Shown: positions 2,108 through 64,000 of the stretch, one piece after another
Layout: each line of letters starts with the position of its first letter
How positions within the stretch are numbered: position 1 is the stretch's first letter
Virus record (IMG/VR): IMGVR_UViG_3300034102_003113
Reading direction: 5' to 3' (one strand)
DNA length: 64,000 nt
DNA from: a virus
Notes under the pieces: model-generated
The model's input: only the letters and a program-made list of their open reading frames with translations
Told to the model about the DNA's origin: nothing
The model's database searches: none
Translations under genes and position numbers: made by a program

Positions 2108-2362
2108 ATGGCGCACTTTGCTAAATTAGACGAGAACAACAAAGTAGTCGAAGTTATTGTGGTATCTAACGATGATATCGTTGATGAAAATGGAGAAGAA
2201 AACGAAGAGATTGGTATTCAATTTTGTAGAAAGATTCAAGGAGAAAATACTAACTGGAAGCAAACCTCGTATAATGGAAACACTAGAGGAAGGTATGCTG
2301 GCATTGGAATGTATTACGATGAAATAATTGATGAGTTTGTTATTCTTGCCGGAGATGAATGA
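2108..2362 (+). CDS. conserved small phage protein (MAHFAKLD-type), often adjacent to Gly-rich proteins
   Basis: MAHFAKLDENNKVVEVIVV...WKQTSYN...YAGIG..YD pattern; tight gene packing. Confidence 0.65.
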   Translation: MAHFAKLDENNKVVEVIVVSNDDIVDENGEENEEIGIQFCRKIQGENTNWKQTSYNGNTRGRYAGIGMYYDEIIDEFVILAGDE

Positions 2363-28022: not shown

Positions 28023-28586
28023 ATGTTTCCTCAAACCATTGTAGTCCTTGGAGCCGATCGAGTTGGCAAATCCACCATCGTAGAAAACACCAAGAACGAT
28101 CTGATCTCTCGGGATATTTGCGTCCGCTCATTGCATTTCTCTGGTCCTCAGCCCCATCATCACACTCCTATTCAGCAATATATCGATCCGTTCCAATCTG
28201 CACTTGATCAAGAAGCCCAAGTAGTTATCTGTGATCGTGGGTTTTCAGAAGTATGTTTTTATGAGAAGTTTCGTCGTCATATCGAGATCTCCGAAGAATG
28301 GGCCAATTCCGCTGAGTCGTTCTTCTCGGCATATAGTCAGAGCATTAAAGTCTTTCTTGTAGAGCGGACTTGGGAATGGAGTCTTCCTTTCCATATTATC
28401 GAGATCAATACTCTCTATCCTGAGTGTTCAGATTATTATCTTGAGATGCAACTCAAAGCCCGCTATAAGGAACACGTAGAGTATTATGCCTATATGAGAG
28501 ACTATCTTGCAAATCGTTCCCTGCTTTCGGATATCCAGATCATTGCTCCTACCTCAAGGCATTTCTCTCTGGCAGATGTGGTTTAA
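28023..28586 (+). CDS. thymidylate-kinase-like dNMP kinase
   Basis: GADRVGKST P-loop, HFSGP, VICDRGFSE..Y. Likely start is ATG 28023. Confidence 0.7.
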   Translation: MFPQTIVVLGADRVGKSTIVENTKNDLISRDICVRSLHFSGPQPHHHTPIQQYIDPFQSALDQEAQVVICDRGFSEVCFYEKFRRHIEISEEWANSAESFFSAYSQSIKVFLVERTWEWSLPFHIIEINTLYPECSDYYLEMQLKARYKEHVEYYAYMRDYLANRSLLSDIQIIAPTSRHFSLADVV

Positions 28587-34479: not shown

Positions 34480-34793
34480 ACTGCTTCAATTGCTCCAATA
34501 ATAAATTCTTTGAGTTGAGACTTTGCCAAAATACCCTCTGTATTTAGCCCAAGAAGATTCGATTCATTGCCAAACACGGCAAAGTTAGGTGTTCCGTCAC
34601 ACTCAATCTGGTCACAAAATGCCCAGTCATCGGTGGTTACATCCCACTCTCCAAACCCCACAGCATAATGTGGATACTCCTCGGCAATCTCATTTGCTGT
34701 TTCTGCCCAGACAGGTTTCATAGCATTGCATGCTGCGCATCCCGGTTGGTGAAAGAAAACAACTCTATGCTTAAATTGTTGTTGATCTGACAT
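34476..34793 (-). CDS. thioredoxin-family protein
   Basis: FHQPGCAACNAMKP (CxxC) and cis-Pro loop GTP. Confidence 0.85.
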   Translation of the reverse strand: MSDQQQFKHRVVFFHQPGCAACNAMKPVWAETANEIAEEYPHYAVGFGEWDVTTDDWAFCDQIECDGTPNFAVFGNESNLLGLNTEGILAKSQLKEFIIGAIEAV

Positions 34794-49512: not shown

Positions 49513-51618
49513 ATGTCAGTTTTACGATTTACAGCTTCTGGAAACCTTAAGTTAGATAGAAATGTTAAGTATGTAAGGGCTAGTATTAATATTAGTTGGA
49601 ATGACGAGTCGGCTCTTTGGGGTACTGCATTAAAGAGTCTCTCATTCAATGATGATAACAACACGGTTCAGTGGTCTACAACCCAAGATAGTGGAAATGC
49701 CTCAAGGAATTTTAAAATATCTGGTAGTACAACCTCAGCAACTGAAGTTTCAGTAACTTATCAATCTCAGAACACTCCACTTAACATAGATAAAAAGAGT
49801 GATACAAGACTTGCGTTTCTTGATGGGGATGGTACTGATGCTAATGCTACAGTTACACTTAGTATCGATGAGGTGGTATACTTTACTCCTGCCGAAAATC
49901 CACCTCCGCCAGGAACTACACCATCACCTGTTGGACCTACTTCTTGCCCCGCTCCTACAGACTGGGTAAATATCCTTCCACCATGCGGACGACCACCATC
50001 TGGATTAAGTTCTCCTGACGGACTACAAATTTCAAAATCTGGGCAGAATCAGATAACTCTTAATCTAAGAAACTATACAAATAAGTTAGTAACTTTAAAA
50101 ATTACGCATGAGAGAGACCCTGGATCTGTTTGGACCCAGAGTTTTGATTTTAATATACCTAACTGTTCAGATATTAGTCCCAACACAGGCGGTACTCCAT
50201 ACGCAAAGGCCGGATATTCCAACTCAAATATAACTGGAGTTAACACATTTTACGTATATAACGTAGATGGTGGAGATTACAATTACGTTTTCAATCATAG
50301 TTCTAATCCTGGTCCTCGCCCTTTGCGCACAAACTATAACTTAGTATGTAACACCGAGTGTTCTACTAACCCAGATGGGACTCAAAATTGCGTTACAACT
50401 TGCAGTTGTGAACCCTACCAGGAAACCTATGGTGGCTCATGGCCTCATTGCCCCACTGGAGTAGCAGTTTCCAAAAATGGAGGGAGCAGAGTCCAATGGC
50501 AGTTTGAAGATGGCGGCGGTGGAGACTATAATGACCAGAAAGTTACCATCGAGGTGGTGAGTGTAAGGAACGCGATTAGTTCCACTGGTCCTATCTGCAC
50601 TTCAGCGCTTAAGAGCAGTGTATGGATCTCTGATGGAAGTGATCTCGCTGCAAATGGTAATTGCATTAGTGACTATAAAGACCACTCTAACAAAATCAGG
50701 TTTAGAATCCCATCTCTGAAAACATCAAAAACTACATTCACCTCCCCTGTTTGTTCTTCTTCATTCAGAGGTGTTGCAGGAGCCGCGGCTCCAGGTGAAG
50801 ACCAAGGATCATCTAGTTCAGAGTACTCTGTTCTTCATATTTTTAATAGAGACTTCAAAAACACTGAATCATTAGTATCTGGTTCGGGTCTAATTGTCAC
50901 GCCACAGAGCGAAGGTGATGTATACATCGGGACCCTCCCCAATCCTAGTTTAAATACCACTTCAAGAAAACATTACTTAGTTCAATTCACCGATGGAACA
51001 ACAGTTTCAGCAGGTGCAAGTAATATTGATGTTACCATAGGGCAGAATTTAACTGCCGATGGATTAGTCTCTCCTATAGTTGTATCTAAAAAAGAACAAG
51101 TAAGTACAAGTTCTCTTCGTGTATGGTTTTATATCAACCTACAACAAAATGAGAGTTCTACCGAGGATGTTATCCATGTCTTTAATGACGATACAAACAC
51201 AACAGATGATGGGCTTAGCGACCTAGTATTCCCTGGAGTTACTATAGTCCCTCAACAACTTACAGACCCTGGCAATGAGACCGCGGGATTTGAAACATTA
51301 GATGCAACAAATAAAAAGCATTATCTACTTACTTTTACAGACTCAACAATCGTTAATTCGGACGCATCGAATATTAATATCATTATAAACCAAAATAAAA
51401 CCGCGAGCAATATCACTGCTAGAATCGGCATCTCTAAAAAAGAACGAGTCGATAATAAGAACGTTAGGGTATGGCTCACGGCTTATTACACTACTCGTCC
51501 AGTGGGTAAAGAACTCGATAACACTTTTGTGAGAGATTGGTCTGTAAATCGCTCCAGAGTTGAGGATTTCTCTGGTAATGTATTTGTTAGAAACTGGAAT
51601 CTTAAAAAGATAGTATGA
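49513..51618 (+). CDS. Cys/Pro-rich putative virion adhesin
   Basis: DGDGTDAN and FEDGGGGDYND motifs; duplicated C-terminal domain. Confidence 0.55.
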   Translation: MSVLRFTASGNLKLDRNVKYVRASINISWNDESALWGTALKSLSFNDDNNTVQWSTTQDSGNASRNFKISGSTTSATEVSVTYQSQNTPLNIDKKSDTRLAFLDGDGTDANATVTLSIDEVVYFTPAENPPPPGTTPSPVGPTSCPAPTDWVNILPPCGRPPSGLSSPDGLQISKSGQNQITLNLRNYTNKLVTLKITHERDPGSVWTQSFDFNIPNCSDISPNTGGTPYAKAGYSNSNITGVNTFYVYNVDGGDYNYVFNHSSNPGPRPLRTNYNLVCNTECSTNPDGTQNCVTTCSCEPYQETYGGSWPHCPTGVAVSKNGGSRVQWQFEDGGGGDYNDQKVTIEVVSVRNAISSTGPICTSALKSSVWISDGSDLAANGNCISDYKDHSNKIRFRIPSLKTSKTTFTSPVCSSSFRGVAGAAAPGEDQGSSSSEYSVLHIFNRDFKNTESLVSGSGLIVTPQSEGDVYIGTLPNPSLNTTSRKHYLVQFTDGTTVSAGASNIDVTIGQNLTADGLVSPIVVSKKEQVSTSSLRVWFYINLQQNESSTEDVIHVFNDDTNTTDDGLSDLVFPGVTIVPQQLTDPGNETAGFETLDATNKKHYLLTFTDSTIVNSDASNINIIINQNKTASNITARIGISKKERVDNKNVRVWLTAYYTTRPVGKELDNTFVRDWSVNRSRVEDFSGNVFVRNWNLKKIV

Positions 51619-51926
51619 GGGTCACATCAATATCCGCTTCGGGTCGTAGAGCCCGACCACCCAAGTGGTGGTGCGAGTTAGTAGAAAAAGTACCCAAGGT
51701 ATATTTACCCTGGCTCAGACCAAAAGTCTGGACACGTGAACTGGCACAGAAGTGGATGGATAGCATCCCATCAAAATGCCCCTTTGAAAGGCAGTGGTGG
51801 ATAGGGGACAAACTGGTACTTTTTATCCCGGCTCTATGCTCCTTGAATCCGCTCTCCACCCAACTCTACTCGCTACGTCTTGAAGCGCAGACTTATCTAT
51901 CTAGACTTGAAGTACCCCAAGAGTAG
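51615..51926 (+). CDS. Mo-nitro_C-like domain protein (cyanobacterial; not a nitrogenase)
   Basis: IPSKCPFER...IPALCSLNPL..QL..LR..A..YL matches the family pattern as I recall it. Confidence 0.75.
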   Translation: MRVTSISASGRRARPPKWWCELVEKVPKVYLPWLRPKVWTRELAQKWMDSIPSKCPFERQWWIGDKLVLFIPALCSLNPLSTQLYSLRLEAQTYLSRLEVPQE

Positions 51927-53633: not shown

Positions 53634-54629
53634 ATGAGTAGCATCCTAGAGCATAACAAGATGATCTTTAAGAAGGACACTGGGTTTGATTTCCCAGAGT
53701 TCTACGACTACTATGAGCGTACAGTGGCAAGTGTATGGCGTCATCAAGAGGTAGCCATGGAATCCGATCTCCGCGATTGGCAATTCAACTCTACACCTGA
53801 CGAGAGGGCTGTTATCGCCGGGATCCTCAAGGGATTTGTTAGCGCAGAGTTGGGAATCGGATGCTACTGGGCAGATGAAGTATGCCGAATCTTCCCCAAA
53901 CCAGAGATTCAGGCTATGGCTAAAGCCTTCTCATTCTTTGAGACTATCCATGCCGCTGCCTATTCCTACCTCAATGATGTTCTTGGACTCAAGGAGTACG
54001 AGGAATTTATCAACGATCCCGTCACCTGTTCTAAGATCGATACATTTTTCTCTAAGTATCCAGATAAGGTCGCTCTTGCAGTGTTCTCTGGAGCGGGGGA
54101 AGGTGTAAGTCTATTCAGTTCATTTGCTGTGCTCCTTAGCTTCAATAAGGATGGTAGGTACAAGGGTCTGGCTCAGATTATTTCCTGGTCTGCCATTGAT
54201 GAGCAGACTCACTCCGAGGCTGGATGCCAACTCTTCAAGAGATTGGTGGAAGAGACAGGACTATCAGACTCCGATCGCCAAGCCATCTATGAAGGTTTCC
54301 AACTCGTAGTAGACAAGGAATCCTCCTTTATCGACCATATCTTTAACTCAGCGTATATCTCCTCAATCGACGCCAGTGAGTTGAAAGCTTATATTAAGAA
54401 CAGGGCAAATGAACGCCTACTTCTCCTTGGTCTTGACCAGATGTTCAAACTATCAACCGAAGAACTTACAAAGGCTAAATCAATCTCATCTTGGTTTGAT
54501 CCGATGGTCAAAGGGGCAAGTAGCACAGATTTCTTTGCCGCTTCTAAAGATGGTGCTAATTACGTAGCCAAAATCTCCCAAGATTTCATGGCTGTAGATC
54601 TTTCCGCCTTAGACCTTGTTCTTGTCTAA
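53634..54629 (+). CDS. nrdB: class I ribonucleotide reductase beta subunit
   Basis: W..EV.M..D..DW, ETIHAAAY, EGVSLFSSF, DEQTH, C-terminal DFF...NY. Confidence 0.93.
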   Translation: MSSILEHNKMIFKKDTGFDFPEFYDYYERTVASVWRHQEVAMESDLRDWQFNSTPDERAVIAGILKGFVSAELGIGCYWADEVCRIFPKPEIQAMAKAFSFFETIHAAAYSYLNDVLGLKEYEEFINDPVTCSKIDTFFSKYPDKVALAVFSGAGEGVSLFSSFAVLLSFNKDGRYKGLAQIISWSAIDEQTHSEAGCQLFKRLVEETGLSDSDRQAIYEGFQLVVDKESSFIDHIFNSAYISSIDASELKAYIKNRANERLLLLGLDQMFKLSTEELTKAKSISSWFDPMVKGASSTDFFAASKDGANYVAKISQDFMAVDLSALDLVLV

Positions 54630-54788: not shown

Positions 54789-54972
54789 CCGAGATGAGTC
54801 TTTGATGATCAAAGACCATGGCACAACATGTCTAATCACTGACATCAAAGCCGATGGATATCTCCGCAGGGCACGAATGAAAAAGAATACAACACCACCA
54901 ATCGACCGATACTCTAGACCTTGTGGTGGTAGAGGCGGGTTTGATGACTTTGTGGAGAGATGGCATGAATGA
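54766..54972 (+). CDS. small hypothetical protein (cyanophage-type)
   Basis: MAIHPNPDRD...GTTCLITD. Confidence 0.5.
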   Translation: MAIHPNPDRDESLMIKDHGTTCLITDIKADGYLRRARMKKNTTPPIDRYSRPCGGRGGFDDFVERWHE

Positions 54973-55375
54973 CTTTAGAACTCCAGATGGTTGGAGTGTA
55001 AGAGGACGGGAGCAAGGTGGCCGAGATTTCTCAGACTCCAAGGAAATGTGGAAGCAATGGAGAAACTCACCCTATGAGGTAAGTAATAAAGGCCAAGTAA
55101 GACGAAAAGGAAGCGGTGAAGTCCGTAAACCTAGAGACGATGGACGTAAGCATCACAGAGTTAATCTAACTTGGGATGGTAATCGTGAGGAACCAATGCT
55201 CCATCAAATGGTTATGGAACTATTCGGTCCGCCAAAGCCTAAAGGAAAGAATATAGTAATCCTCCATAAAGATAACAATGGAACAAACAACTCCATCTCT
55301 AATCTAAAATGGGGAACTAAGTCAGAGAACGTACAACAGGCGCATGACGATGGGTTAATCGATAACTCAAAATAA
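54965..55375 (+). CDS. NUMOD4-HNH homing endonuclease
   Basis: YEVSNKGQVR (NUMOD4); HQMVMELF, ILHKDNN..NN.ISNLKWGT.SEN. Start is ATG 54965. Confidence 0.85.
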   Translation: MNDFRTPDGWSVRGREQGGRDFSDSKEMWKQWRNSPYEVSNKGQVRRKGSGEVRKPRDDGRKHHRVNLTWDGNREEPMLHQMVMELFGPPKPKGKNIVILHKDNNGTNNSISNLKWGTKSENVQQAHDDGLIDNSK

Positions 55376-55487: not shown

Positions 55488-57404
55488 ATGCCAGAACTTC
55501 AAGTACCAGAATGGATGAGTAAGGAAGCCGTGGATACCCTCTCAAGGGGGTATCTATGGAATGCGGAGACCCCCCGTGGGATGTTTGAACGAGTCTCAAA
55601 TCAAGCCGCTAAGATCCTTGAATATCCAGAATTAGCCGATGATCTTTTCGAGGTACTCTGGCGTGGGTTTTTAGGTCTTGCTACTCCAGTAGCCAGCAAC
55701 TTTGGCACGTCTCGTGGGTTACCAATTAGTTGCTACTCAACTCATCTCTCCGACTCGGTCCAGTCCATCTACTCCCACCTCAAGGAAGTCGCTGCTCTAT
55801 CAAAGAATGGTGGTGGAGTAGGAGTATATCTCGGTGACATCCGCCCTTCTGGATCTCCTATTGCCTCTGGTGGGAAGAGCACCGGCATTGTTCCTTGGGC
55901 TCGGCAATATGACCAGTGTGCTTCTGTAGTCAGCCAAGGTGGAGTGAGGAGAGGAAGTTTTGCAATGTATGTCCCTATCGACCACCCTGATCTTGCAGAG
56001 TTGCTCCGCACTAAAGACCACTCTCAAGGTGACCCGCGGGATTTTGTTGATAGCAATATCGCCGTCTCTATCACCGATGAGTGGGTAGAGAGCATGTTGG
56101 CTGGAGATCGTGAAAAGCAAAAGATCTTTGGCGAGGTGCTTAAGGTTCGGATGATCAGCGGGTCACCATACATCATTTATATTGATAATGCCAACCGCGC
56201 CAATCCTGAATGCTATACCCAACGTGGTCTTAAAGTAAGTCTTAGTAATCTCTGTTCAGAGATCTTCCTCCATACAGATGAGAACCATACCTTTGTCTGC
56301 GTACTCAGTTCTATCAACCTTGCCCGATGGGAAGAATGGAAAGACTGGAGAGGAGCAAAAACTGGCAAATCTGTACCTGAGTTGGCCGTGTACCTCCTCG
56401 ATGCGGTCGTAGAGGAGTTCTGTCATAAGGGCGATCGCACTGCATCCATGGGACGGAGTGTTCGTTTCGCTCGTAAATCCAGAGCTCTTGGCCTGGGTAC
56501 TATGGGTCTCCATGCACTCTATCAGTCTAAGAATCTTCCGTTTGCATCTGAGGAAGCCCGTGTCCTAAACATCGAGACACATAGATTCATCAAAGAGCAG
56601 GCAATTAAGGCCTCTGAGGAGATGGCAATCAGATATGGCGAACCAGAATGGTGCGAGGGAAGTGGCCGGAGACACACTCACCTGATGGCCATTGCTCCAA
56701 CTCGTTCTAACTCTGTTATCTGCGGAGCTGTGAGTCAGGGCATCGAACCCATCGATGCTAATTACTATGTCGCTAAGCAAGCAAAAGGTACTTTTGTTCG
56801 TAAAAATCCCTACCTTGAAGCGTACCTAGACTCAGTCGGGAAGAACACCGAGGAGGTATGGGAAAGCATATTGGAGTTCAGAGGATCTGTCCAGCATCTC
56901 GATTTCCTATCCGAGGAGACCAAGGGTATCTTCCTCACAGCTCGTGAGATGGACCAGTTTGAACTTGTTAAACAAGCCTCAGATCGTCAACCCTATGTTT
57001 GCCAAGGGCAATCCCTCAACCTCTTCGTAGACCCTGAGTCCTCCCCAGAATATCTCTTCAAGCTCCACCTAAGTGCCTGGAAGGGTGGCCTGAAGTCCCT
57101 TTATTACCTCAAGAGTAGTTCTTTACTCGTCAAGAGAAAGAAACTCGAGACGGTATCTAAGACCGCAAAAATCATCACAAAGGAAACTTGCCCTTATTGC
57201 ACCATGGCAAAGTCCCTGCTCAAAGCAAAGGGATACAAGATTGAGGAGATTGATCGCGCCAATGTGCCTGACTCTGAATTCCCCTACCGCACTGTGCCTC
57301 AGATCTGGATCAATGGACAGTACATTGGTGGATACACAGAACTGGCAGAGAAGATTGGCACTCCAGAAAAACAATATGGTGAGTGTACTGCCTGCGAGGG
57401 TTGA
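55488..57404 (+). CDS. nrdA: class I ribonucleotide reductase alpha subunit with fused glutaredoxin domain
   Basis: ISCY, GGGVG, SQGGVRRG, SNLCSEI, VCVLSS, IAPT, KSLYY; then TCPYC...TVPQIWINGQYIGGY and terminal CTAC. Confidence 0.95.
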   Translation: MPELQVPEWMSKEAVDTLSRGYLWNAETPRGMFERVSNQAAKILEYPELADDLFEVLWRGFLGLATPVASNFGTSRGLPISCYSTHLSDSVQSIYSHLKEVAALSKNGGGVGVYLGDIRPSGSPIASGGKSTGIVPWARQYDQCASVVSQGGVRRGSFAMYVPIDHPDLAELLRTKDHSQGDPRDFVDSNIAVSITDEWVESMLAGDREKQKIFGEVLKVRMISGSPYIIYIDNANRANPECYTQRGLKVSLSNLCSEIFLHTDENHTFVCVLSSINLARWEEWKDWRGAKTGKSVPELAVYLLDAVVEEFCHKGDRTASMGRSVRFARKSRALGLGTMGLHALYQSKNLPFASEEARVLNIETHRFIKEQAIKASEEMAIRYGEPEWCEGSGRRHTHLMAIAPTRSNSVICGAVSQGIEPIDANYYVAKQAKGTFVRKNPYLEAYLDSVGKNTEEVWESILEFRGSVQHLDFLSEETKGIFLTAREMDQFELVKQASDRQPYVCQGQSLNLFVDPESSPEYLFKLHLSAWKGGLKSLYYLKSSSLLVKRKKLETVSKTAKIITKETCPYCTMAKSLLKAKGYKIEEIDRANVPDSEFPYRTVPQIWINGQYIGGYTELAEKIGTPEKQYGECTACEG

Positions 57405-57418: not shown

Positions 57419-57429
57419 TATGATAGAAT
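57419..57429 (+). promoter_or_regulatory. extended -10 promoter TATGATAGAAT
   Basis: Immediately upstream of the dNTP pyrophosphatase gene. Confidence 0.65.
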
Positions 57430-57439
57430 CTACAAGTAA

Positions 57440-57907
57440 ATGCTACCCCAGCAAGATATGAATTTCGACTACGCCAGGTTTATCGATGAAGGCTATGCTT
57501 CTCAGCAAAAGTACGCTAAAGCTGCAGGACAACCTGGCCCTTTGGATGAAAACCTCTCCAGTAATGATCGCCATGCAAAGGTGATTGAGTACATGGGCCA
57601 TCTCATCGAAGAGACTATTGAGGCCCGAGTGTATGTCCCACGGCGTAGTTGGAAAACCAATGAACCCTCGTTCCTTGACTCCAATAAAAACCGTGAGGAG
57701 TTTATCGCTGAATGCTTTGATATTCTTCTCTTCCACCGGGCAATTTTGGCTTATGCCGGAGTTACTGGGGATGAATTTGCTGAGGTTGCAGCACGGAAAC
57801 TCGACTATAACTCAAAACGTAAAGATCACATCACCAATGGCACCGAGTCCGCTCCTGTTGATCCGTCTAAAGAACTTCAAGGAGACTGCCCTTCAGCTTC
57901 TTTCTAA
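57440..57907 (+). CDS. all-alpha dNTP pyrophosphatase (dimeric dUTPase / T4 gp56 dCTPase-like)
   Basis: EETIE, RSWK, AECFDILLF, K..YN..R. Confidence 0.7.
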   Translation: MLPQQDMNFDYARFIDEGYASQQKYAKAAGQPGPLDENLSSNDRHAKVIEYMGHLIEETIEARVYVPRRSWKTNEPSFLDSNKNREEFIAECFDILLFHRAILAYAGVTGDEFAEVAARKLDYNSKRKDHITNGTESAPVDPSKELQGDCPSASF

Positions 57908-57915
57908 ATGATACA

Positions 57916-58092
57916 ATGAACAAACGACCGATTCAAAGACTCCTACAGGATACCTCTGAAGACCGGTGTTTAAATTGTGACGGGAGGGGGTTTGAGATCA
58001 TCACTCATACCTCTCCTGATGGATACGTAGAACCAAACGAGGTACAGGAATGTGAACATTGCAATAGCACTGGAAAACGCATGGGGAATTAA
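57916..58092 (+). CDS. small DnaJ-type zinc-finger protein (58 aa, not in the ORF track)
   Basis: Hand-translated ...CLNCDGRG...CEHCNSTG... Confidence 0.6.
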   Translation: MNKRPIQRLLQDTSEDRCLNCDGRGFEIITHTSPDGYVEPNEVQECEHCNSTGKRMGN

Positions 58093-58549
58093 ACCGGAGT
58101 CTTCGGTTTTAGTTCTTAATGCCACCTATGAACCGATAAACATCACAAGTTGGAAAAGGGCTATCATCCTTCTTGTAAAGGAGAAAGCTACGATTATCTC
58201 GGAGAAGGTAATCCGTCTTATCGACTATGTTCGTGTTCCTGTATCCAAAATTATGGAAGCAAAGCCATCTCGGGCGATGATTTACAAACGAGATGGGCAT
58301 AAATGCCAATATTGTGGCTCTACGAGGGGATTGACAATTGACCATGTAATTCCTAAGAGTCGTGGAGGTGGGGATACTTGGCAGAATTTAGTTGTTGCGT
58401 GTAGCAAATGTAATACATTTAAGAGCAATAAACTCTTAGAGCATACAGGAATGAAACTTGTACGAAAACCCACAGCCCCGGTAAATAAGATCATCTTCGT
58501 GATTTCCCAAACTAAAGACCCAGAATGGCAACAGTATAATTATATTTGA
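58052..58549 (+). CDS. HNH endonuclease (McrA-like, cyanobacterial type)
   Basis: VLVLNATYEP, RD...CQYCG, TIDHVIPKSRGG..TWQNLVVAC..CN..K. Exact start uncertain. Confidence 0.9.
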   Translation: MNIAIALENAWGIKPESSVLVLNATYEPINITSWKRAIILLVKEKATIISEKVIRLIDYVRVPVSKIMEAKPSRAMIYKRDGHKCQYCGSTRGLTIDHVIPKSRGGGDTWQNLVVACSKCNTFKSNKLLEHTGMKLVRKPTAPVNKIIFVISQTKDPEWQQYNYI

Positions 58550-58559
58550 TTAAAGTTCG

Positions 58560-58589
58560 GAGGGGAGTTAAATCTTCCCTCTTTTTTTT
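58560..58589 (+). terminator. intrinsic terminator
   Basis: GAGGGGAG-loop-CTTCCCTC followed by T8. Confidence 0.7.
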
Positions 58590-58598
58590 ATTGTCATC

Positions 58599-59165
58599 AT
58601 GGACTTTTATTTCTCTTTTGGTAAAAAGAAACCATCAGAAAGATCAATGATTATCTCCGCAGCATTTATCTGGGGAATCTTTGAGGCCATAGTAGATCCA
58701 TTACTTGATTTCATCAATCGTAAGGTTTTAAATAGTTTTGATGGAGAGAAATTAAAGTTGGTATTTGATGAGTTAGATATTTTTTGGCTTAGAAATGGGC
58801 AAAATAAGCATTATTCTAACTCTGACATTCGTCTTATTATATGTTTATTTTTGAGATCAGTAGAAGATAACCAACTAACTAGAAAAGAACTCTTAGCGCT
58901 CACTAACTTTATCCAGAGACATTGGGTAGCATCTGAAGCTTTAAAGAAGACTTTTACTCAAACTGATGAAGTTATCGAGGCGCATGTGGAATCCACTGTG
59001 GATCAGGCCATCGAGTTATATGAAAAAACATATATGGAAAAACCACAAACCCCAGAAGAGTTTGTGGCCAGTACTGCAGAGATAATATTCCATGAACCAG
59101 ACGGGAGTAAGGCTCAAGAACTGCTTGGTGGGATGATGGAGATAAAGAATAAGTTTTTTTACTAA
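58599..59165 (+). CDS. hypothetical protein
   Basis: 188 aa ORF with a moderately hydrophobic N-terminal segment. Confidence 0.55.
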   Translation: MDFYFSFGKKKPSERSMIISAAFIWGIFEAIVDPLLDFINRKVLNSFDGEKLKLVFDELDIFWLRNGQNKHYSNSDIRLIICLFLRSVEDNQLTRKELLALTNFIQRHWVASEALKKTFTQTDEVIEAHVESTVDQAIELYEKTYMEKPQTPEEFVASTAEIIFHEPDGSKAQELLGGMMEIKNKFFY

Positions 59166-60376
59166 ATAACCCAAAGAGGCTTCATAGGATCCTTGGAAGC
59201 AGTGTTATTTTGTCTCAGGATTTTATATGTCCCATCATCCTGGGTCTCTGGACTGACCCACTCTCTATTACCATCTAGTGCCTCAGAGATTTCTTTAATC
59301 CAGTCTCCGGCTGTACATGCCGGGACGTTCTGGCAGATCACGTTACTATGCTTTGTAGGAATGTGTACTTTAGCTGCGTAATCGTCAGGGAATCCCATTA
59401 AGGCCAACCCTTCCGCGATAGTCAACCATCTATCTTCGTAGGGATGCATGAGATAAGGAAGTGACTTCCACATTAGACTCTGTGTTCTATACCAGGATAG
59501 TTTAATACTTCCATCCATAATATTTTTTCCAGCTTTTTTCTTTTCAAGCGTGTAATTCAACCAGCGATTAGCCTTCTCATCCTTGACAACTCTCGCCGCT
59601 TCTTCTAACCACCCAGAGTCGTAGATTACGTTCCAGGCAGAGGTCATTCTCTGAGATGCAACATTGGAGAGAATATCTTGCTTAGTAGAACCAACATACT
59701 TCGACTCAATAAACTGCCATAATGGATCTTCACTTGGTTTTGTTCTTGACTTATTAACAGATTCTGACTCAGCAAACTTACCTTCTTTGAGGAATTGATG
59801 AAAAGGAACAAAATCTTTTTTAATTGGTGAAAGTACTGGGACTTTATCTCCCTTCCATAAGAAAAAGAAACTTCTTGTCCGTTCTTGTGGCACTCCATGA
59901 TTAATCGAGGTGGTCTTTACCAGACTCATCGTATAACCATGACCCTGAGCTAGAGTGTTAATTCTTTCCGCAAACTCCTCGCCCATCTTAGAGTAAAGAG
60001 CAGGAGCATTCTCTACCATAATTGCCTTAGGTTTAATCTTTGACATAGCAAATTCTGCTGCATTGTACATATGTACGTTGCTAGGAGCTGAGCATCCCCG
60101 CGGATTATTTGCTTTATCCCCAGATGTGGTATTTGCCATAGACAACCCAGCACAAGGTGGAAGTGATGTAATGATGTCTACATAGGCATTAGGAAACTGC
60201 TCCTCCTCAAAGTCATAGAAAGGCACTTTGTTCATGTATTGAAGACAATACTGATCATTGGCTCCAAACACACTCCCCCATGAGGCGATCCATTCAGGAT
60301 CTGATCCTAATGCCATAGAAGTTCCAACAACACTTCCTCCCACTAGAGGGATGATATGCCCATGAGTATACGCCAT
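59162..60376 (-). CDS. C5 cytosine methyltransferase-like protein
   Basis: PPCAGLS (motif IV), VENAP (VI), GVPQERTRSFF (VIII), R.LTIAE..LMGFPDDY (IX), QNVP (X). Motif I is atypical (IPLVGG). Confidence 0.8.
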   Translation of the reverse strand: MAYTHGHIIPLVGGSVVGTSMALGSDPEWIASWGSVFGANDQYCLQYMNKVPFYDFEEEQFPNAYVDIITSLPPCAGLSMANTTSGDKANNPRGCSAPSNVHMYNAAEFAMSKIKPKAIMVENAPALYSKMGEEFAERINTLAQGHGYTMSLVKTTSINHGVPQERTRSFFFLWKGDKVPVLSPIKKDFVPFHQFLKEGKFAESESVNKSRTKPSEDPLWQFIESKYVGSTKQDILSNVASQRMTSAWNVIYDSGWLEEAARVVKDEKANRWLNYTLEKKKAGKNIMDGSIKLSWYRTQSLMWKSLPYLMHPYEDRWLTIAEGLALMGFPDDYAAKVHIPTKHSNVICQNVPACTAGDWIKEISEALDGNREWVSPETQDDGTYKILRQNNTASKDPMKPLWVI

Positions 60377-60423
60377 GTGATATAATTAATTAAGTCTAGA
60401 GTTCCTTAGACTGAAAATCCCTG

Positions 60424-60431
60424 GTTTAAAG
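60424..60431 (+). promoter_or_regulatory. putative late promoter motif GTTTAAAG
   Basis: 23 nt before ATG 60455; TGTGATATAAT also present at 60376-60386. Confidence 0.55.
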
Positions 60432-60454
60432 ACTATGGAGGATAGATTTTAGCA

Positions 60455-60754
60455 ATGGATAAGAGACTTTCTACGCAAGATTACATGGAGATCCTGAAAA
60501 AGAAACGTCAGGATGGAACATATGACTACGCTGATCGAGTCTTTTATAAGGGCAAAGTAATGCTTAAATGCCCTCCAGGAGCTACTAAACTTGGCAATAC
60601 CTGCGTCCCATCAGCCGCTGCTACTGCAAAGGGTGCTGGTCCAGGAAAAACATGGCAAAAAGATCTCGGAGGCATTAATCCTCAACAAGTTCAACAATTA
60701 GGTGTCGCAAAAACATCCAAAGATATAAAAAAAGCTAGAGAAAAGAATGGATGA
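60455..60754 (+). CDS. small basic protein with a CPPG-x7-CVP motif
   Basis: 99 aa ORF preceded by a promoter motif. Confidence 0.55.
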   Translation: MDKRLSTQDYMEILKKKRQDGTYDYADRVFYKGKVMLKCPPGATKLGNTCVPSAAATAKGAGPGKTWQKDLGGINPQQVQQLGVAKTSKDIKKAREKNG

Positions 60755-61901
60755 TCCGCTTATCATCACAAACGGAAAGTTTTCTATCTCAATTGAGACA
60801 AAAAAATCTCTAAAGAATGTAAACTTTGGAGCAGGATCTATTACTCTACGCCCAGGTAAACCCAAAGAAGCTACCCAGTGGTACGACGTAAATAACAGAC
60901 AGGTATATAAACGTCCGAGCGGGCACTGGAGTTATACTAATCCAGAACAATCTAAAAAAAGCCTAGAGAAGAGAATGTCTAGCGCCTATGACCGTAATGC
61001 CGGATCATCAAGTGCGCAAAAACCCTCTGCTCAAGGGACAAAAACATCAGCGCACACTCTCTCCGAGAATCTAATCAAGGATTTATTACTGACTAAGAAC
61101 GATAGTTCTAAAGTTAAACTTAAGGGGATTTTTGAATCCGAGATTAATAAATTAGAATCGGATGATAAAACAAAAAGAGACTGGATTGACTCCACTTACA
61201 ATTCAGCACAAGCGATTCAAACTTACTTAGATAGTAGTGGAGAACAAATAAAAAACATAGATTATGTCGGGAACAAAACTCAATCAGAAGAGTTTTACAC
61301 AGCGGATATAATCATACAAACAGATAAAAGAAAATTAGGAGTTTCCTTAAAGAAAACTGGAAACGCTAGGATGTATAATACATCTATTAACAAAGATAAT
61401 AGAGTCCAAGAGTTCTTTGCTGCCCAAGATGATCTGTTAAAGAGATTTGTACCTCAAGGGACAAAGTTAAATAGAAAGCTCAGGAAAGAAATTTTTAGTA
61501 ATAACAAAAATCAAAAAATAGACGGATTGACTCTAGAGAAACATCTCTCTAATCTAAGAGTGGATCTACAAAAAAATTTAAAAGATGACATTGACAATGT
61601 ACTAGGCTCTAGTAACATAGTAGGTAAAGTACAAAAGATATTCAATGCCATTAATAAAAACACACTAATACTCGTGTCCAATAAAGATGTGATTGACTCT
61701 TCTAATTTAAAAAAATTAGGGCAAAATCACCTCGAACCAAGACACGCTAACGACGGATCTAATTTTATATATTACGGGAATACGGCCGTAGCTAGATTAG
61801 GTATCCGTCAGGACGGAATGGGTTATGGAACTTCGATAAAACTAGAAGCCAATTTCACCCAACAATTTATTCGTGAATTAACAAAGAATACCAATGATTG
61901 A
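60747..61901 (+). CDS. putative PD-(D/E)xK-superfamily endonuclease
   Basis: Helix with E (LSENL), then TADIII...GVSLKK; AT-rich, Lys/Asn-rich. Confidence 0.55.
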   Translation: MDDPLIITNGKFSISIETKKSLKNVNFGAGSITLRPGKPKEATQWYDVNNRQVYKRPSGHWSYTNPEQSKKSLEKRMSSAYDRNAGSSSAQKPSAQGTKTSAHTLSENLIKDLLLTKNDSSKVKLKGIFESEINKLESDDKTKRDWIDSTYNSAQAIQTYLDSSGEQIKNIDYVGNKTQSEEFYTADIIIQTDKRKLGVSLKKTGNARMYNTSINKDNRVQEFFAAQDDLLKRFVPQGTKLNRKLRKEIFSNNKNQKIDGLTLEKHLSNLRVDLQKNLKDDIDNVLGSSNIVGKVQKIFNAINKNTLILVSNKDVIDSSNLKKLGQNHLEPRHANDGSNFIYYGNTAVARLGIRQDGMGYGTSIKLEANFTQQFIRELTKNTND

Positions 61902-62136
61902 AAGAATCTCAAAACCAATTCGCTTTGATAAGCAAATCCCCTGGCTCATTGTAGCTCGCGATGGAGAAAAGTTTTTTGTCGCTAAAGAAGATGTAATCGC
62001 CGAGGACCCTAGCATGGAACTCATTGAGATGGGAAGTCGCTCATTACTTCAGTGGGCAATGGAGTATGATTATCCTCTTCGCAAGTTTGTAAAACTCCAG
62101 AAGATCCTTGTTAAGAAGTATTTCGACATTGAATGA
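61894..62136 (+). CDS. hypothetical protein
   Basis: 80 aa; overlaps the upstream stop. Confidence 0.55.
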   Translation: MIERISKPIRFDKQIPWLIVARDGEKFFVAKEDVIAEDPSMELIEMGSRSLLQWAMEYDYPLRKFVKLQKILVKKYFDIE

Positions 62137-62149
62137 CTAGTTAGTTTCC

Positions 62150-62160
62150 TGTGATAGAAT
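62150..62160 (+). promoter_or_regulatory. extended -10 promoter TGTGATAGAAT
   Basis: Upstream of the ThyA-family gene. Confidence 0.65.
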
Positions 62161-62189
62161 GATCATCTAATCATTCACCACGGGAGATT

Positions 62190-63026
62190 ATGACTCTGTC
62201 ATTTGATTATCAGTACATTAAGATTGCAAAAGAGATCCTGACCGAAGGTACCGAGGTTATCGGCCGAAACAATCTCCGCTATAAGCAGATGTTCGGTCAG
62301 ACAATCAAGATCGATCTTCGGGAGGGATTTCCTGCTCTCACGATCCGTAAGATGCCCGTACGTAATCTCTTCCGAGAGTTTATGTGGGATGTCAATGGAG
62401 ACTATCAAGTAACCAATCTCGGTCCTGCCAAGCACTTCTGGGACTTTTTGGCCGATACCGAAGGCCGTCTTGCAGGGTCTTACGGACGTTCCTGGCGATC
62501 CTGGCCTCAAGTCTGCCCAGAGCAAAATATGCAATGGGAGAAATTCCGTAATGAACCATTCGACCAACTCAAGTGGATCTGGGAACAACTTCGCACAAAT
62601 CCAACCAATCGCCAACTTGTTCTTCAGACTTTCAATCCTGCTTACGATTCTCTTCACTGTCCTCCTTGTCATCCTAACCTCACTTTTTCTAGTGATGGGA
62701 CTTATCTTGATTTGATGGTTAATGCTCGGAGTAATGACATGGCCACAGGAGTCCCTCTGGATATGTTCCGTTATGGCCTCCTTACTACAAAGATGGCGCA
62801 GGATGCCAATCTTACTCCTCGATTTGTGATGTTCGCCTCGGCCAATAACCACATCTATTCTCAGAATGAGATGGCCATTGAATCGATCATCAAGAACGTG
62901 CCCATGGCACCGTGTGATGTCTGGATCAATAATGAGAAGTCACTTTTCGATCTTGATCCTGAGGCTGATTTTGAACTGATTGATTACTTCTCCCATCCCT
63001 CAGCTCGTATGGAGGTGGCTAACTGA
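62190..63026 (+). CDS. thyA: thymidylate synthase (ThyA)-family enzyme, predicted dCMP-specific (methylase or hydroxymethylase)
   Basis: DLREGFP, YG..WR.W, DQL, PPCH (Cys160), RSND...GVPLD (Asp191 where TS has Asn), HIY. The symbol is family-level only. Confidence 0.85.
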   Translation: MTLSFDYQYIKIAKEILTEGTEVIGRNNLRYKQMFGQTIKIDLREGFPALTIRKMPVRNLFREFMWDVNGDYQVTNLGPAKHFWDFLADTEGRLAGSYGRSWRSWPQVCPEQNMQWEKFRNEPFDQLKWIWEQLRTNPTNRQLVLQTFNPAYDSLHCPPCHPNLTFSSDGTYLDLMVNARSNDMATGVPLDMFRYGLLTTKMAQDANLTPRFVMFASANNHIYSQNEMAIESIIKNVPMAPCDVWINNEKSLFDLDPEADFELIDYFSHPSARMEVAN

Positions 63027-64000
63027 TGCCTATTCCCTCCTACGATTACACTTCATCCCTACTCGAAGATGTATTTGAGCCCGTCATCGATCCTTATTGT
63101 CCGGTTGTCGTTATTGATTTCAAAGTATACGCTCATGCCATTAATAAGTACGCTGAGTTGGCTTCGGAAGTTGCTAGGAATGATGATGAGTTAAAGACAA
63201 TCATGAAGGCCATGTGGGCCTATAAACTCAACCGGGGACCTGACATGCTCCAGTCATTCCCCTTTGTTGGATTGATTGTAGATGACCTTAAAGGCCAATT
63301 TGAGCCAGAGTTTTCTGAGGCATCTACCACTGGAGTTGGGTATTGGAGGCATATCGAAGCTCATAAGATTAATCTTGCAGAGTACAAGGGTGGTAGAGGA
63401 GAAAAAACGCCGTTCTTCTACCTAACAGAGGCCGCCGGGTATGAATACATTCTCTCCCAAGGCTCCACCTTCCCCTACTTTGCTAAGGAGTTCTTTGAGG
63501 CAGATGATATTGCAGGACATATCTGCAGACTGAAAAGAAAAGCCAAAAAGAACTCTGTATTAGCCCAAAGACAGATCATCCTCTCCACGGTGGATGGGGA
63601 CTGGCAAGGACTTGTATCCGACTCTCATGATATTGTCTGGGCCAATACCGGCCCATGGCTCCCTCGCCTCCGTTCTGAGACAGAAGTTTGCGATTACTAT
63701 CTCCGCAAAGACAAACTAATTATCGACTCCGCCTATGGTTGCTATACTGTAAAGGAGAAGGTCGGTGATGCCGGAGATAACCTTATGCCTGGAACACCAC
63801 TGCGATTTTTTGACTTATACAATGAAGATTCTGAATGGCGTTTTACAAAAGAAGACACCCAAGCCATATCAAAAGTACTTAACTCTGACACTCCTTCAAA
63901 CAGGGAAGATCACCTACAATCCGCAAAAAAATTTCTCTCCTCTAAGGGACTTTTCATGCCAGAGATTGGTGAGACCCAGTATGATGAAAAACAATTCTTC
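63026..64000 (+). CDS. 5'-3' exonuclease/flap endonuclease (T4 RNase H / T5 D15-like), 3'-truncated
   Basis: Not in the ORF track. Hand-translated from ATG 63026: VVVIDF, YWR, YKGGR, FEADDIAG, STVDGDW, VGDAGDNL. Confidence 0.85.
   Translation, partial: MPIPSYDYTSSLLEDVFEPVIDPYCPVVVIDFKVYAHAINKYAELASEVARNDDELKTIMKAMWAYKLNRGPDMLQSFPFVGLIVDDLKGQFEPEFSEASTTGVGYWRHIEAHKINLAEYKGGRGEKTPFFYLTEAAGYEYILSQGSTFPYFAKEFFEADDIAGHICRLKRKAKKNSVLAQRQIILSTVDGDWQGLVSDSHDIVWANTGPWLPRLRSETEVCDYYLRKDKLIIDSAYGCYTVKEKVGDAGDNLMPGTPLRFFDLYNEDSEWRFTKEDTQAISKVLNSDTPSNREDHLQSAKKFLSSKGLFMPEIGETQYDEKQFF

What the first reader, a model, noticed from the sequence alone, without database searches (positions are those of the whole stretch)
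57419..64000. Putative cytosine-modification and host-DNA-degradation system
Seen: within 6.5 kb lie a gp56-like all-alpha dNTP pyrophosphatase, a Zn finger, an HNH nuclease, an atypical C5-MTase-like gene, a PD-(D/E)xK-like nuclease, the Asp-type TS homologue and a 5'-3' exonuclease. A TMK-like kinase (28023-28586) shares the TGnTAnAAT promoter motif with the pyrophosphatase and the TS homologue. Established: T-even phages use dCTPase, dCMP hydroxymethylase, dNMP kinase and C-specific nucleases to replace cytosine. Inference: this phage runs an analogous pathway (dCTP to dCMP to modified dCMP to modified dCTP), unusually combined with a DNA-level C5-MTase fold. An alternative is that 5m-dCMP is deaminated as a bypass route to dTMP.
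Basis: partly seen in the sequence, partly recalled or inferred. Interest (0 to 1): 0.8.

Follow-up and report, generated by a model that had tools for sequence, protein, structure and literature searches.

The report
Cyanophage cytosine-modification gene set
An uncultured marine cyanophage of the S-TIM5 group carries a thymidylate-synthase look-alike built to act on dCMP rather than dUMP, plus helper enzymes, so it probably swaps cytosine in its DNA for a modified base as phage T4 does; the chemistry is untested, and the claimed host-DNA-degradation part has only weak, strain-specific support.

Summary
The window is part of a 135-kb contig of a TIM5-like (Aurunvirus-related) cyanophage. Almost all the listed genes are real:
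- a MazG-fold NTP pyrophosphatase;
- a DnaJ-type zinc-finger miniprotein;
- an HNH nuclease;
- a divergent C5-methyltransferase;
- a ThyA homologue with Asp at the Asn177 position;
- a flap endonuclease;
- a Tmk-like kinase 30 kb away.

The core genes are syntenic in every relative examined.

The same contig also encodes ThyX. Relatives encode dCMP deaminase and a true homologue of T4 DNA alpha-glucosyltransferase, but no DHFR or TET. This matches the T4 layout, so a pre-replicative dCMP-modification pathway is well supported by inference.

The product is open. The enzyme belongs to a separate Asp177/Cys143 clade that fits none of the published signatures for methyl, hydroxymethyl or hydroxy products. 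I favour 5-hydroxymethyl-dCMP followed by glucosylation.

Three parts of the finding are weak:
- The 'PD-(D/E)xK nuclease' is a strain-variable, restriction-enzyme-like accessory gene behind a late-type promoter.
- The TGnTAnAAT motif is a general early promoter, not a pathway marker.
- Host-DNA degradation is not shown.

First-stage readers of this scan noted the same thyA/thyX and Asp points on this same genome. Verdict: new variant of a known kind.

The parts
28023..28586 (+). Tmk/dNK-like P-loop nucleotide kinase (187 aa). Candidate kinase for the modified dCMP.
   Evidence: P-loop GADRVGKS and a CDRGFSE motif are invariant in 23 relatives. Weak hits: Thymidylate_kin E 0.0099; phrog_761 thymidylate kinase 3e-5; Plasmodium TMK E 0.0036 with the family profile; ESM Atlas 0.96 to viral Tmk clusters. 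Present in S-TIM54 and in 4 of 4 related viral records. TGATATAAT lies 34 nt upstream.
53634..54629 (+). Ribonucleotide reductase small subunit (NrdB), same early promoter class.
   Evidence: PF00268 1.2e-47. TGATAGAAT lies 41 nt upstream.
55488..57404 (+). Ribonucleotide reductase large subunit fused to a C-terminal glutaredoxin.
   Evidence: PF02867 1e-100 and PF00462 1e-10. TGATAAAAT lies 30 nt upstream.
57440..57907 (+). All-alpha (MazG/HisE-fold) NTP pyrophosphohydrolase. Inferred dCTP (and perhaps dUTP) pyrophosphatase.
   Evidence: PRA-PH 17.7 bits, below the cut-off; phrog_12184 1.9e-5. Invariant EExxE and ExxD. AF2 pLDDT 87.6. Foldseek top hits are mouse and human DCTPP1, iMazG and DR2231, probability 0.96-0.98, E 0.05-0.2.
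57916..58092 (+). 58-aa zinc-finger miniprotein with two CXXCXGXG boxes; role unknown.
   Evidence: DnaJ_CXXCXGXG E 2.2e-6. The cysteines and the GRGF box are invariant in relatives.
58052..58549 (+). HNH endonuclease, conserved in the whole lineage; target unknown.
   Evidence: PF01844 1.5e-15; phrog_16726 2.3e-60. 56-81% identical in relatives.
58599..59165 (+). 188-aa protein of unknown function, variably present.
   Evidence: Only phrog_3316, unknown function. Absent from S-TIM5/54 and several other loci.
59162..60376 (-). Divergent DNA cytosine-C5 methyltransferase-fold protein, conserved in all relatives.
   Evidence: PF00145 3e-21; PADLOC Type II MTase 1.6e-24. Nearly all matches start near residue 50-65. 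PPC, ENA and QERTR motifs are present, with IPLVGGS in place of FxGxG. 70-86% identical in relatives.
60455..60754 (+). 99-aa ORF homologous to the C-terminal end of a 553-561-aa S-TIM5/54 virion protein. First gene of a late-type unit.
   Evidence: tblastn to S-TIM54 144835-145089. S-TIM5 gp079 is annotated as a virion structural protein. GTTTAAAG lies 31 nt upstream.
60747..61901 (+). 384-aa strain-variable accessory gene, probably a type II restriction-endonuclease-like (PD-(D/E)xK-type) nuclease.
   Evidence: No Pfam, PHROG, NCBIfam or PADLOC hit. ESM Atlas structure TM 0.55/0.64 to a cluster in which 19% of members carry RE_HaeIII. Invariant E107, D187, S200-L-K202. AF2 pLDDT 71. HinP1I gives Z 6.2 over 179 residues and is the only hit spanning the domain. 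Among related loci it is found only in L013/L014, at 42%.
61894..62136 (+). 80-aa conserved protein always found directly upstream of the ThyA homologue; function unknown.
   Evidence: 65-99% identical in all relatives. No family hit.
62190..63026 (+). ThyA-family enzyme with Asp at the Asn177 position and Cys at the Leu143 position. Inferred dCMP C5-modifying enzyme.
   Evidence: PF00303 2e-54. Residue table. Clade analysis. TGATAGAAT lies 38 nt upstream.
63026..64000 (+). Flap endonuclease / 5'-3' exonuclease. 425 aa in full; it runs off the window.
   Evidence: phrog_26716 3.5e-93; PF02739 weak. Annotated as flap endonuclease in S-TIM54. Full length seen in L009.

Best explanation
This is the early-expressed nucleotide-metabolism block of a TIM5-like cyanophage. 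It includes a pre-replicative cytosine-replacement pathway laid out like that of T4 but built mostly from unrelated parts.

Proposed flow:
1. The MazG-fold enzyme turns dCTP (and perhaps dUTP) into the monophosphate. This keeps dCTP out of DNA and feeds dCMP.
2. The ThyA homologue (Asp177) adds a one-carbon unit from methylene-tetrahydrofolate to C5 of dCMP. The most likely product is 5-hydroxymethyl-dCMP.
3. The Tmk-like kinase and host NDP kinase raise it to the triphosphate, and the phage polymerase incorporates it.
4. After replication, the T4-type alpha-glucosyltransferase encoded elsewhere in genomes of this lineage glucosylates the base.
5. dTMP is made separately by dCMP deaminase plus ThyX.

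What is shown and what is inferred:
- Shown: the genes, their folds or families, the specificity residue, their conservation, and their co-occurrence.
- Inferred: every substrate and product, and that the virion DNA is modified.
- The conserved C5-MTase-fold protein is not explained by this scheme.
- The restriction-like 384-aa gene is a strain-specific addition. It could cut unmodified DNA.
For: - Asp at position 177, with Glu58, Trp80, Tyr94, Cys146, His147, Arg166 and Asp169 all kept, in the window and 12 other TIM5-like sequences.
- The published rule that Asn177 selects dUMP and Asp selects dCMP (PMC13326640, PMC8670742).
- In the 1.84-billion-protein library the enzyme sits in a clade of 18 representatives, all with Asp177 (support 0.93). 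109 of the 156 aligned sequences (150 best hits plus 6 references) are ordinary Leu143/Asn177 ThyA.
- The window's own contig also encodes an intact ThyX.
- The complete relative G001 (159 kb, terminal repeats, ThyA homologue 88% identical) has ThyX, dCMP deaminase and an alpha-glucosyltransferase, but no DHFR and no TET/JBP.
- The glucosyltransferase is a true T4 a-gt homologue: BLASTP 3e-20 over 382 residues, phrog_2888 2.4e-86 over its full length.
- The cluster NrdB-HNH-NrdA-MazG-ZnF-HNH-MTase-80aa-ThyA-FEN is syntenic in about 12 distinct relatives.
- The pyrophosphatase's nearest solved folds are dCTP pyrophosphatases.
- The pathway genes sit behind the same sigma-70-like extended -10 elements as NrdA and NrdB.
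Against: - No biochemical or DNA-composition data exist for this lineage in the papers I could search.
- The enzyme lacks the published hydroxymethylase signature. It has Cys, not Asp/Glu, three residues before the catalytic Cys, and it keeps the C-terminal tail (PMC6400193).
- A strictly conserved DNA C5-methyltransferase would have no substrate if all cytosines were replaced. This argues for partial replacement or another arrangement.
- The alpha-glucosyltransferase could not be checked in the window's own genome, because the contig lacks that end. The window's sample did not appear in the metagenome scan.
- The specificities of the pyrophosphatase and the kinase are inferred from fold only.
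Confidence: 0.6

Rival explanations
1. An Xp12/PaMx74-type pathway. The ThyA homologue is a dCMP methyltransferase making 5-methyl-dCMP, and the DNA carries 5-methylcytosine in place of cytosine. The glucosyltransferase homologue would then act on something else.
For: - Apart from position 177 the enzyme is a full-length ThyA. It keeps His147, Asp169 and the C-terminal Val-Ala-X tail that seals the site for hydride transfer, and position 143 is not acidic (PMC6400193).
- Engineered Asn-to-Asp ThyA methylates dCMP (cited in PMC8670742).
- Known 5mC phages pair such an enzyme with a PRA-PH-type pyrophosphatase (bioRxiv 10.1101/2024.12.05.627091).
Against: - No DHFR in the complete relative, whereas PaMx74 has one two genes from its ThyA homologue, with the deaminase between them.
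- A T4-type alpha-glucosyltransferase needs a hydroxyl acceptor.
- Trp83 and Leu143, which shield the intermediate from water, are replaced by Leu and Cys.
- No TET/JBP is present to oxidise 5mC.
Confidence: 0.25
2. There is no nucleotide-level modification. The ThyA homologue is a redundant or relaxed dTMP synthase, the MazG-fold enzyme is a house-cleaning or dUTPase-type enzyme as in many cyanophages, and the only DNA modification is site-specific methylation by the C5-MTase.
For: - A conserved DNA C5-MTase makes most sense on cytosine-containing DNA.
- NCBIfam TIGR03284 (thymidylate synthase) scores above its cut-off.
- MazG-type genes are common in phages without modified bases (my own knowledge).
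Against: - Asp177 is invariant across a deep clade. Purifying selection on a residue that excludes dUMP is hard to reconcile with dTMP synthesis.
- ThyX is already present.
- The glucosyltransferase would be left without a substrate.
Confidence: 0.1
3. One reading: 5-methyl-dCMP or 5-methyl-dCTP is made only to be deaminated, as a bypass route to thymidylate.
For: 5mC-selective deaminases that produce dTTP from 5m-dCTP are described for Xp12-like phages (bioRxiv 10.1101/2024.12.05.627091). The lineage has a dCMP-deaminase-family gene.
Against: - The phage has its own ThyX, so no bypass is needed.
- That paper names the S-TIM5 deaminase as a solved cytidine deaminase (Marx and Alian 2015). From memory, it is the classical dTTP-regulated dCMP deaminase.
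- The deaminase lies about 80-90 kb from the ThyA homologue, not next to it as in the 5mC phages.
Confidence: 0.05

Closest known systems
T-even phage hydroxymethylcytosine pathway (T4 gp56 dCTPase/dUTPase, gp42 dCMP hydroxymethylase, gp1 dNMP kinase, cd, td, alpha- and beta-glucosyltransferases)
   Same: - Same logic and division of labour: a pyrophosphatase of the all-alpha NTP-PPase superfamily, an Asp-type ThyA-family enzyme, a nucleotide kinase, dCMP deaminase plus a separate thymidylate synthase, and a DNA alpha-glucosyltransferase.
- The glucosyltransferase is a genuine homologue.
   Different: - No detectable sequence similarity to gp56.
- Only 19% identity to gp42. The gp42 signature is absent: Cys not Asp at -3, and the C-terminal tail is kept.
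- The kinase is Tmk/dNK-like; T4 gp1 did not appear in the profile search of solved structures.
- ThyX replaces td.
- No EndoII/EndoIV counterpart was found.
- A DNA C5-MTase is present.
Xanthomonas phage Xp12 / Pseudomonas phage PaMx74 5-methylcytosine pathway
   Same: A ThyA homologue with Asp177 and a PRA-PH/MazG-type pyrophosphatase; a deaminase-family gene in the genome.
   Different: - PaMx74 has its deaminase directly beside its ThyA homologue and DHFR one gene further on.
- TIM5-like phages have no DHFR, a distant deaminase, ThyX and a glucosyltransferase.
- The ThyA homologues belong to different clades.
5-hydroxy-dCMP synthases of RB69, DLP3 and RL38JI (PMC13326640)
   Same: ThyA-family enzymes with Asp177 that feed glycosylation of cytosine.
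   Different: Their diagnostic Asp169-to-Asn change is absent here: Asp169 is invariant.
Cyanophage S-TIM5 and relatives (genus Aurunvirus)
   Same: Gene-for-gene synteny with 57-80% protein identity across the region. The homologous genes are annotated ThyA, DNA methylase, HNH, NrdA/B, flap endonuclease, ThyX, deaminase and DNA alpha-GT.
   Different: - The window's phage is a different, uncultured species-level lineage.
- It carries the 188-aa and 384-aa accessory genes that S-TIM5/54 lack.
- A 99-aa remnant stands in place of a 553-561-aa virion protein.

Membership tests
Thymidylate synthase family (Pfam PF00303) | Full-length match to the family profile with the catalytic Cys146, Glu58, Arg166 and Tyr94. 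| tested here: met
   PF00303 2.1e-54 over residues 8-277. All four residues are present.
Canonical dTMP-forming ThyA | Asn177 (selects dUMP), with Leu143 and Trp83 shielding the active site. | tested here: not met
   Asp177, Cys143 and Leu83 in the window and all TIM5-like sequences.
T4-type dCMP hydroxymethylase (dCH) | Asp at the 177-equivalent position. | tested here: met
T4-type dCMP hydroxymethylase (dCH) | Asp/Glu three residues before the catalytic Cys, Ser/Thr two residues before the catalytic Tyr, and no C-terminal tail (PMC6400193). | tested here: not met
   Cys at -3, Gly at -2 and Ser at -1 before the Tyr, and the C-terminal Val-Ala-Asn tail is kept.
5-hydroxy-dCMP synthase | Asp169 replaced by Asn (PMC13326640). 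| tested here: not met
   Asp169 is kept in all 13 TIM5-like sequences; one of the 18 sequences in the wider clade, P0016, has Cys at this position.
Xp12-type dCMP methyltransferase | Asp177 with a water-excluding active site, and a route to recycle dihydrofolate. | tested here: inconclusive
   Asp177 is met. Residue 143 is Cys and 83 is Leu. No DHFR in the complete relative. Alignment of PaMx74 around residue 143 is ambiguous because of a 4-5-residue insertion.
All-alpha NTP pyrophosphohydrolase superfamily (MazG/HisE/DCTPP1) | Four-helix fold with EExxE and ExxD metal-binding motifs. | tested here: met
   The motifs are invariant. AF2 pLDDT 87.6, with the best Foldseek rows almost all of this superfamily, probability up to 0.98 but E only 0.05-0.7. 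Pfam PRA-PH is below its cut-off.
T4 gp56 dCTPase family | Sequence similarity to gp56. | tested here: not met
   BLASTP E 7. Only the ExxD helix lines up.
DNA cytosine-C5 methyltransferase (PF00145) | Motifs IV (PC), VI (ENV) and VIII (QxRxR). | tested here: met
   PPC, ENA and QERTR.
DNA cytosine-C5 methyltransferase (PF00145) | AdoMet-binding motifs I (FxGxG) and II (acidic residue). | tested here: inconclusive
   IPLVGGS stands in place of motif I. No clear motif II acid. Profile matches start at residue 50-65.
PD-(D/E)xK type II restriction endonuclease | Restriction-enzyme core fold with an acidic/Lys catalytic motif. | tested here: inconclusive
   Invariant D187...S200-L-K202. HinP1I Z 6.2, rmsd 5.4, 179 residues. 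Atlas TM 0.55/0.64 to a cluster in which 19% of members carry RE_HaeIII. No sequence-family hit.
Thymidylate/deoxynucleoside kinase fold | P-loop plus a DR(Y/F)-type motif and a lid Arg. | tested here: inconclusive
   GADRVGKS and CDRGFSE are invariant. All profile hits are below the curated cut-offs. Atlas score 0.96.
T4 DNA alpha-glucosyltransferase (AGT) | Homologue present in the same genome. | not testable with these tools
   Present in the S-TIM54, G001 and G004 records. The window's contig lacks the corresponding genome end, and the metagenome scan returned no contig of its sample.

The most novel reading that the evidence does not exclude
The Asp177/Cys143 ThyA clade is a fourth functional type of phage pyrimidine-C5 enzyme. 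It would either reach hydroxymethylation by a water-activation route different from the Asp/Glu of T4 gp42, or make a so-far-undescribed C5 product. The conserved C5-MTase-fold protein with a rebuilt cofactor site would then act on the resulting DNA rather than as an ordinary methylase. TIM5-like cyanophages, widespread in the oceans, would carry a new cytosine hypermodification.
Probability: 0.15. Interest if true: 0.85.

Novelty: new variant of a known kind. Interest (0 to 1): 0.6.

Why it matters
- Marine cyanophages are generally treated as having ordinary cytosine. Modified DNA in a globally distributed cyanophage lineage would affect three things: how these phages escape host restriction, how well they are recovered by sequencing and PCR-based counting, and nucleotide budgets during infection.
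- The Asp177/Cys143 enzyme clade breaks the residue rules now used to predict ThyA-homologue products from metagenomes. One expression assay would therefore refine those rules.
- S-TIM5 and its relatives are in culture, so the prediction can be tested directly.

Tried and rejected
- **No whole genome held.** The contig was reconstructed in part by look-ups. I could not reach the region expected to hold the dCMP deaminase (about 20 kb upstream of the window) within the look-up cap.
- **Alpha-glucosyltransferase scans.** Scans of viral and metagenome contigs found many TIM5-like copies, but none from the window's sample.
- **TET/JBP route (C5-MTase, then oxidation, then sugar).**
  - PF12851 was not found in the four related viral records searched, including the complete one. 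The control genomes gave no signal either, so the search is weak.
  - The window's only 2OG-Fe(II) oxygenase (2359-2976) is of the common cyanophage type, phrog_61, with Tet_JBP E 0.071. It lies among fibre genes and has no S-TIM54 homologue.
- **384-aa protein.** Foldseek against solved structures gave nothing significant.
- **Pyrophosphatase.** Neither the single sequence nor the family profile found any solved structure by sequence.
- **Restriction-site avoidance.** No 4-mer palindrome is strongly depleted: GGCC O/E 0.92, GCGC 1.04, CCGG 0.79, lowest AGCT 0.62. This gives no clue to MTase or nuclease specificity.
- **Neighbourhoods of more distant Asp177/Cys143 enzymes.** They are phage-like but added no glycosyltransferase or deaminase linkage.
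- **Sabehi et al. 2012 (the S-TIM5 description).** It is not held in the library, so I cannot exclude that it already comments on DNA modification.

Full report
**What the window is**

The region matches cyanophages S-TIM5, S-TIM54 and S-TIM66 (genus Aurunvirus) at the DNA level, but only over the ThyA gene, at 77%. At the protein level the whole window is syntenic with S-TIM54 positions about 83-147 kb, with 25-80% identity.

Exact-protein look-ups place the window at positions 50276-114275 of a 135,174-bp metagenome contig, Ga0453725_0000009. So this is an uncultured TIM5-like cyanophage.

**Check of the listed genes**

Pfam and PHROG scans confirm:
- the ThyA-family protein (62190-63026, 2e-54);
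- an HNH nuclease (58052-58549);
- a C5-methyltransferase-fold protein on the minus strand (59162-60376, 3e-21). Nearly all profile matches to it begin near residue 50-65;
- a 58-aa protein with two DnaJ-type CXXCXGXG zinc boxes;
- a flap-endonuclease-type 5'-3' exonuclease that runs off the window (425 aa in full).

The 155-aa 'gp56-like' protein is below the Pfam cut-off for PRA-PH.
- It carries invariant EExxE and ExxD motifs.
- It folds with high confidence (pLDDT 87.6) into a helical bundle.
- Its best solved matches are nearly all MazG-superfamily enzymes, led by mouse and human dCTP pyrophosphatase DCTPP1 (probability 0.96-0.98, though E only 0.05-0.1).
- It shows no sequence similarity to T4 gp56. 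'gp56-like' therefore holds only at superfamily level.

The kinase at 28023-28586 has a P-loop and a CDRGFSE motif invariant in 23 relatives. It gives several weak thymidylate/deoxynucleoside-kinase signals.

**The 384-aa gene**

It has no hit in Pfam, PHROGs, NCBIfam or PADLOC. Three lines point to a restriction-endonuclease-like nuclease:
- Its eleven environmental homologues (eight of them aligned here) conserve E107, D187 and S200-L-K202.
- The ESM Atlas places its model next to a cluster partly labelled RE_HaeIII (TM 0.55/0.64 over 264 residues).
- In an exhaustive structural comparison, HinP1I is the only hit that spans the domain (Z 6.2, rmsd 5.4, 179 residues). Foldseek alone found nothing significant.

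I read it as probably restriction-like, at about 60%. It is not part of the conserved cluster.
- Among related loci only L013/L014 have a copy, at 42% identity. S-TIM5/54 have a 553-561-aa virion protein at that site instead.
- Together with a 99-aa remnant of that virion protein, it follows a GTTTAAAG box at 60424. This motif is enriched (12 copies against 2.7 expected) and lies upstream of structural genes.

**The ThyA homologue**

Alignment to E. coli ThyA, T4 gp42 and the PaMx74 enzyme shows the following.
- Glu58, Trp80, Tyr94, Cys146, His147, Arg166, Ser167 and Asp169 are kept, as is the C-terminal Val-Ala-X tail.
- Asn177 is Asp, Leu143 is Cys, Trp83 is Leu, and Ala142 is His in all but one sequence (Val in L029). 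Apart from position 142, this holds for the window and all 12 other TIM5-like sequences, which are 75-93% identical.

The literature gives three residue rules:
- Asn177 to Asp switches the substrate from dUMP to dCMP (PMC8670742, PMC13326640).
- An Asp or Glu three residues before the catalytic Cys, together with loss of the C-terminal tail, marks hydroxymethylases. The T4 D145N mutant makes no product (PMC6400193).
- Asp169 to Asn marks 5-hydroxy-dCMP synthases.

The enzyme here meets the first rule and neither of the other two. It also lacks the Leu143/Trp83 pair that shields the ThyA active site from water.

A full HMMER search of 1.84 billion representatives shows that this is not an oddity of one phage.
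- 18 representatives form a clade with support 0.93.
- All 18 have Asp177, 14 have Cys143, and most have Leu83.
- 109 of the 156 aligned sequences (150 best hits plus 6 references) are ordinary Leu143/Asn177 enzymes.
- Members whose context could be read sit in phage, often cyanophage-like, contigs.

**Genome context**

| Gene | Window's own contig | Relatives |
|---|---|---|
| ThyX | Intact, about 21 kb downstream of the ThyA homologue (PF02511, 161 bits) | Annotated in S-TIM54; found in G001 and G002 |
| dCMP deaminase | Not reached | Annotated in S-TIM54; found in 4 of 4 related viral records |
| DNA alpha-GT | Contig lacks that genome end | Annotated in S-TIM54; found in G001 and G004 |
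| DHFR | Not searched | None |
| TET/JBP | Not searched | None |

- G001 is the complete relative: 159 kb, terminal repeats, ThyA homologue 88% identical.
- The glucosyltransferase is a real homologue of T4 a-gt. It is 25% identical over 382 residues (E 3e-20), shares the RGLEGCGV and HDH motifs, and matches phrog_2888 over its full length at 2.4e-86.
- The S-TIM5 deaminase has a solved structure, according to a preprint that cites Marx and Alian 2015. From memory, it is the classical dTTP-regulated dCMP deaminase.
- The cluster from NrdB to the flap endonuclease is syntenic in about a dozen distinct relatives. The kinase is present in all of them.

**Interpretation**

The arrangement parallels T4 point for point:

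| Step | T4 | TIM5-like phages |
|---|---|---|
| dTMP supply | cd + td | dCMP deaminase + ThyX |
| dCMP C5 modification | gp42 | ThyA homologue (Asp177) |
| dCTP clearance | gp56 | MazG-fold enzyme |
| Phosphorylation of the modified dCMP | gp1 | Tmk-like kinase |
| DNA glucosylation | a-gt | AGT homologue |

A phage that already has ThyX has no evident use for an enzyme whose specificity residue excludes dUMP, other than to modify dCMP.

I therefore hold that the phage makes a C5-modified dCMP before replication, at about 0.7. Three things favour 5-hydroxymethyl-dCMP as the product: the glucosyltransferase, the missing DHFR, and the opened active site. The ThyA-like tail and the non-acidic residue 143 keep 5-methyl-dCMP a serious rival.

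From memory, not checked here: Fritz et al. 2002 reported that E. coli ThyA mutants at Trp80 and Leu143 let the exocyclic methylene intermediate react with solvent nucleophiles. That would fit a Cys143/Leu83 enzyme adding water.

**What does not fit or is not shown**

- The conserved C5-MTase-fold protein would have no substrate on fully substituted DNA. It has intact catalytic motifs but an unusual N-terminal cofactor region. Its role is open.
- Nothing identifies a cytosine-specific nuclease. The HNH and the flap endonuclease are generic. The restriction-like gene is strain-specific. So 'host-DNA degradation' is speculation, although a restriction-like enzyme in a phage with protected DNA could serve that end.
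- The window shows no avoidance of 4-bp palindromes.
- The TGnTAnAAT motif is a genuine promoter-like element: 11 of 19 copies lie just upstream of gene starts, P about 1e-12. But it serves the nucleotide-metabolism genes generally (kinase, NrdB, NrdA, pyrophosphatase, ThyA homologue, the MTase on the other strand) and others. Over the whole window it is not enriched, at 19 copies against 14 expected.

**Novelty**

The searchable literature on TIM5-like phages annotates these genes as ThyA, ThyX, deaminase, DNA methylase and DNA alpha-GT. It does not discuss modified DNA. The original S-TIM5 paper could not be read.

First-stage readers of this scan noted the Asp residue and the thyA/thyX redundancy on this same genome. 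I tested both here.

The pathway type is known from T4 and Xp12. What is new is its occurrence in a cyanophage lineage, its assembly from non-orthologous parts, and an enzyme clade that escapes the current product-prediction rules.

Noticed in passing
window 3751, 7316, 8303, 26661(-), 27901(-), 28581, 53026, 60424 and others: GTTTAAAG occurs 12 times against 2.7 expected. 8 copies lie 12-50 nt upstream of same-strand gene starts, mostly structural genes. This is a candidate lineage-specific late promoter.
   Followed up: partly
window 2359-2976 (+): A 2OG-Fe(II) oxygenase (phrog_61 4.7e-13; PF13640 26 bits, just under the cut-off) sits among tail-fibre genes, next to a glycine-rich-domain protein. 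It has no homologue in S-TIM54. It is probably a protein hydroxylase rather than a DNA oxidase.
   Followed up: partly
window 55488-57404 (+): The class I ribonucleotide reductase large subunit carries a C-terminal glutaredoxin domain fused in frame.
   Followed up: no
window 54923-55375 (+): An HNH_3 plus NUMOD4 homing-endonuclease-like gene sits between nrdB and nrdA. It is conserved at this spot in relatives.
   Followed up: no
window 57440-57907, C-terminal 15 residues: The MazG-fold protein ends in a conserved tail, P..EL.G.C.SA.F, lying beyond the catalytic helices. Residues P142, E145, L146, G148, C150 and S152 are invariant in 25 sequences. Its purpose is unknown.
   Followed up: no
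window 60377-62189 and the same interval in related loci: The interval between the MTase and the 80-aa gene is a hot spot of gene turnover. It holds a 553-561-aa virion protein in S-TIM5/54, only a short ORF in L011/L012, and a 99-aa remnant plus a restriction-like gene here.
   Followed up: partly
L064:14409-16796 (same phage, about 11 kb beyond the window's end): A 795-aa protein with an ADP-ribosyltransferase toxin-type domain (PF03496), followed by a lysozyme/peptidase C39-like protein and a MoxR-type AAA ATPase with a DUF2201 partner.
   Followed up: no
window 51615-51926 (+) and L117:4845-5198: A small protein with a Mo-dependent nitrogenase C-terminal domain (PF06967, 1.2e-14). The domain recurs in a distant phage contig that also carries an Asp177/Cys143 ThyA homologue.
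   Followed up: no
window 33694-34479 (-) and 34476-34793 (-): A phage sigma-factor gene sits directly downstream of a thioredoxin gene. The thioredoxin gene is preceded by a TGGTATAAT element.
   Followed up: no
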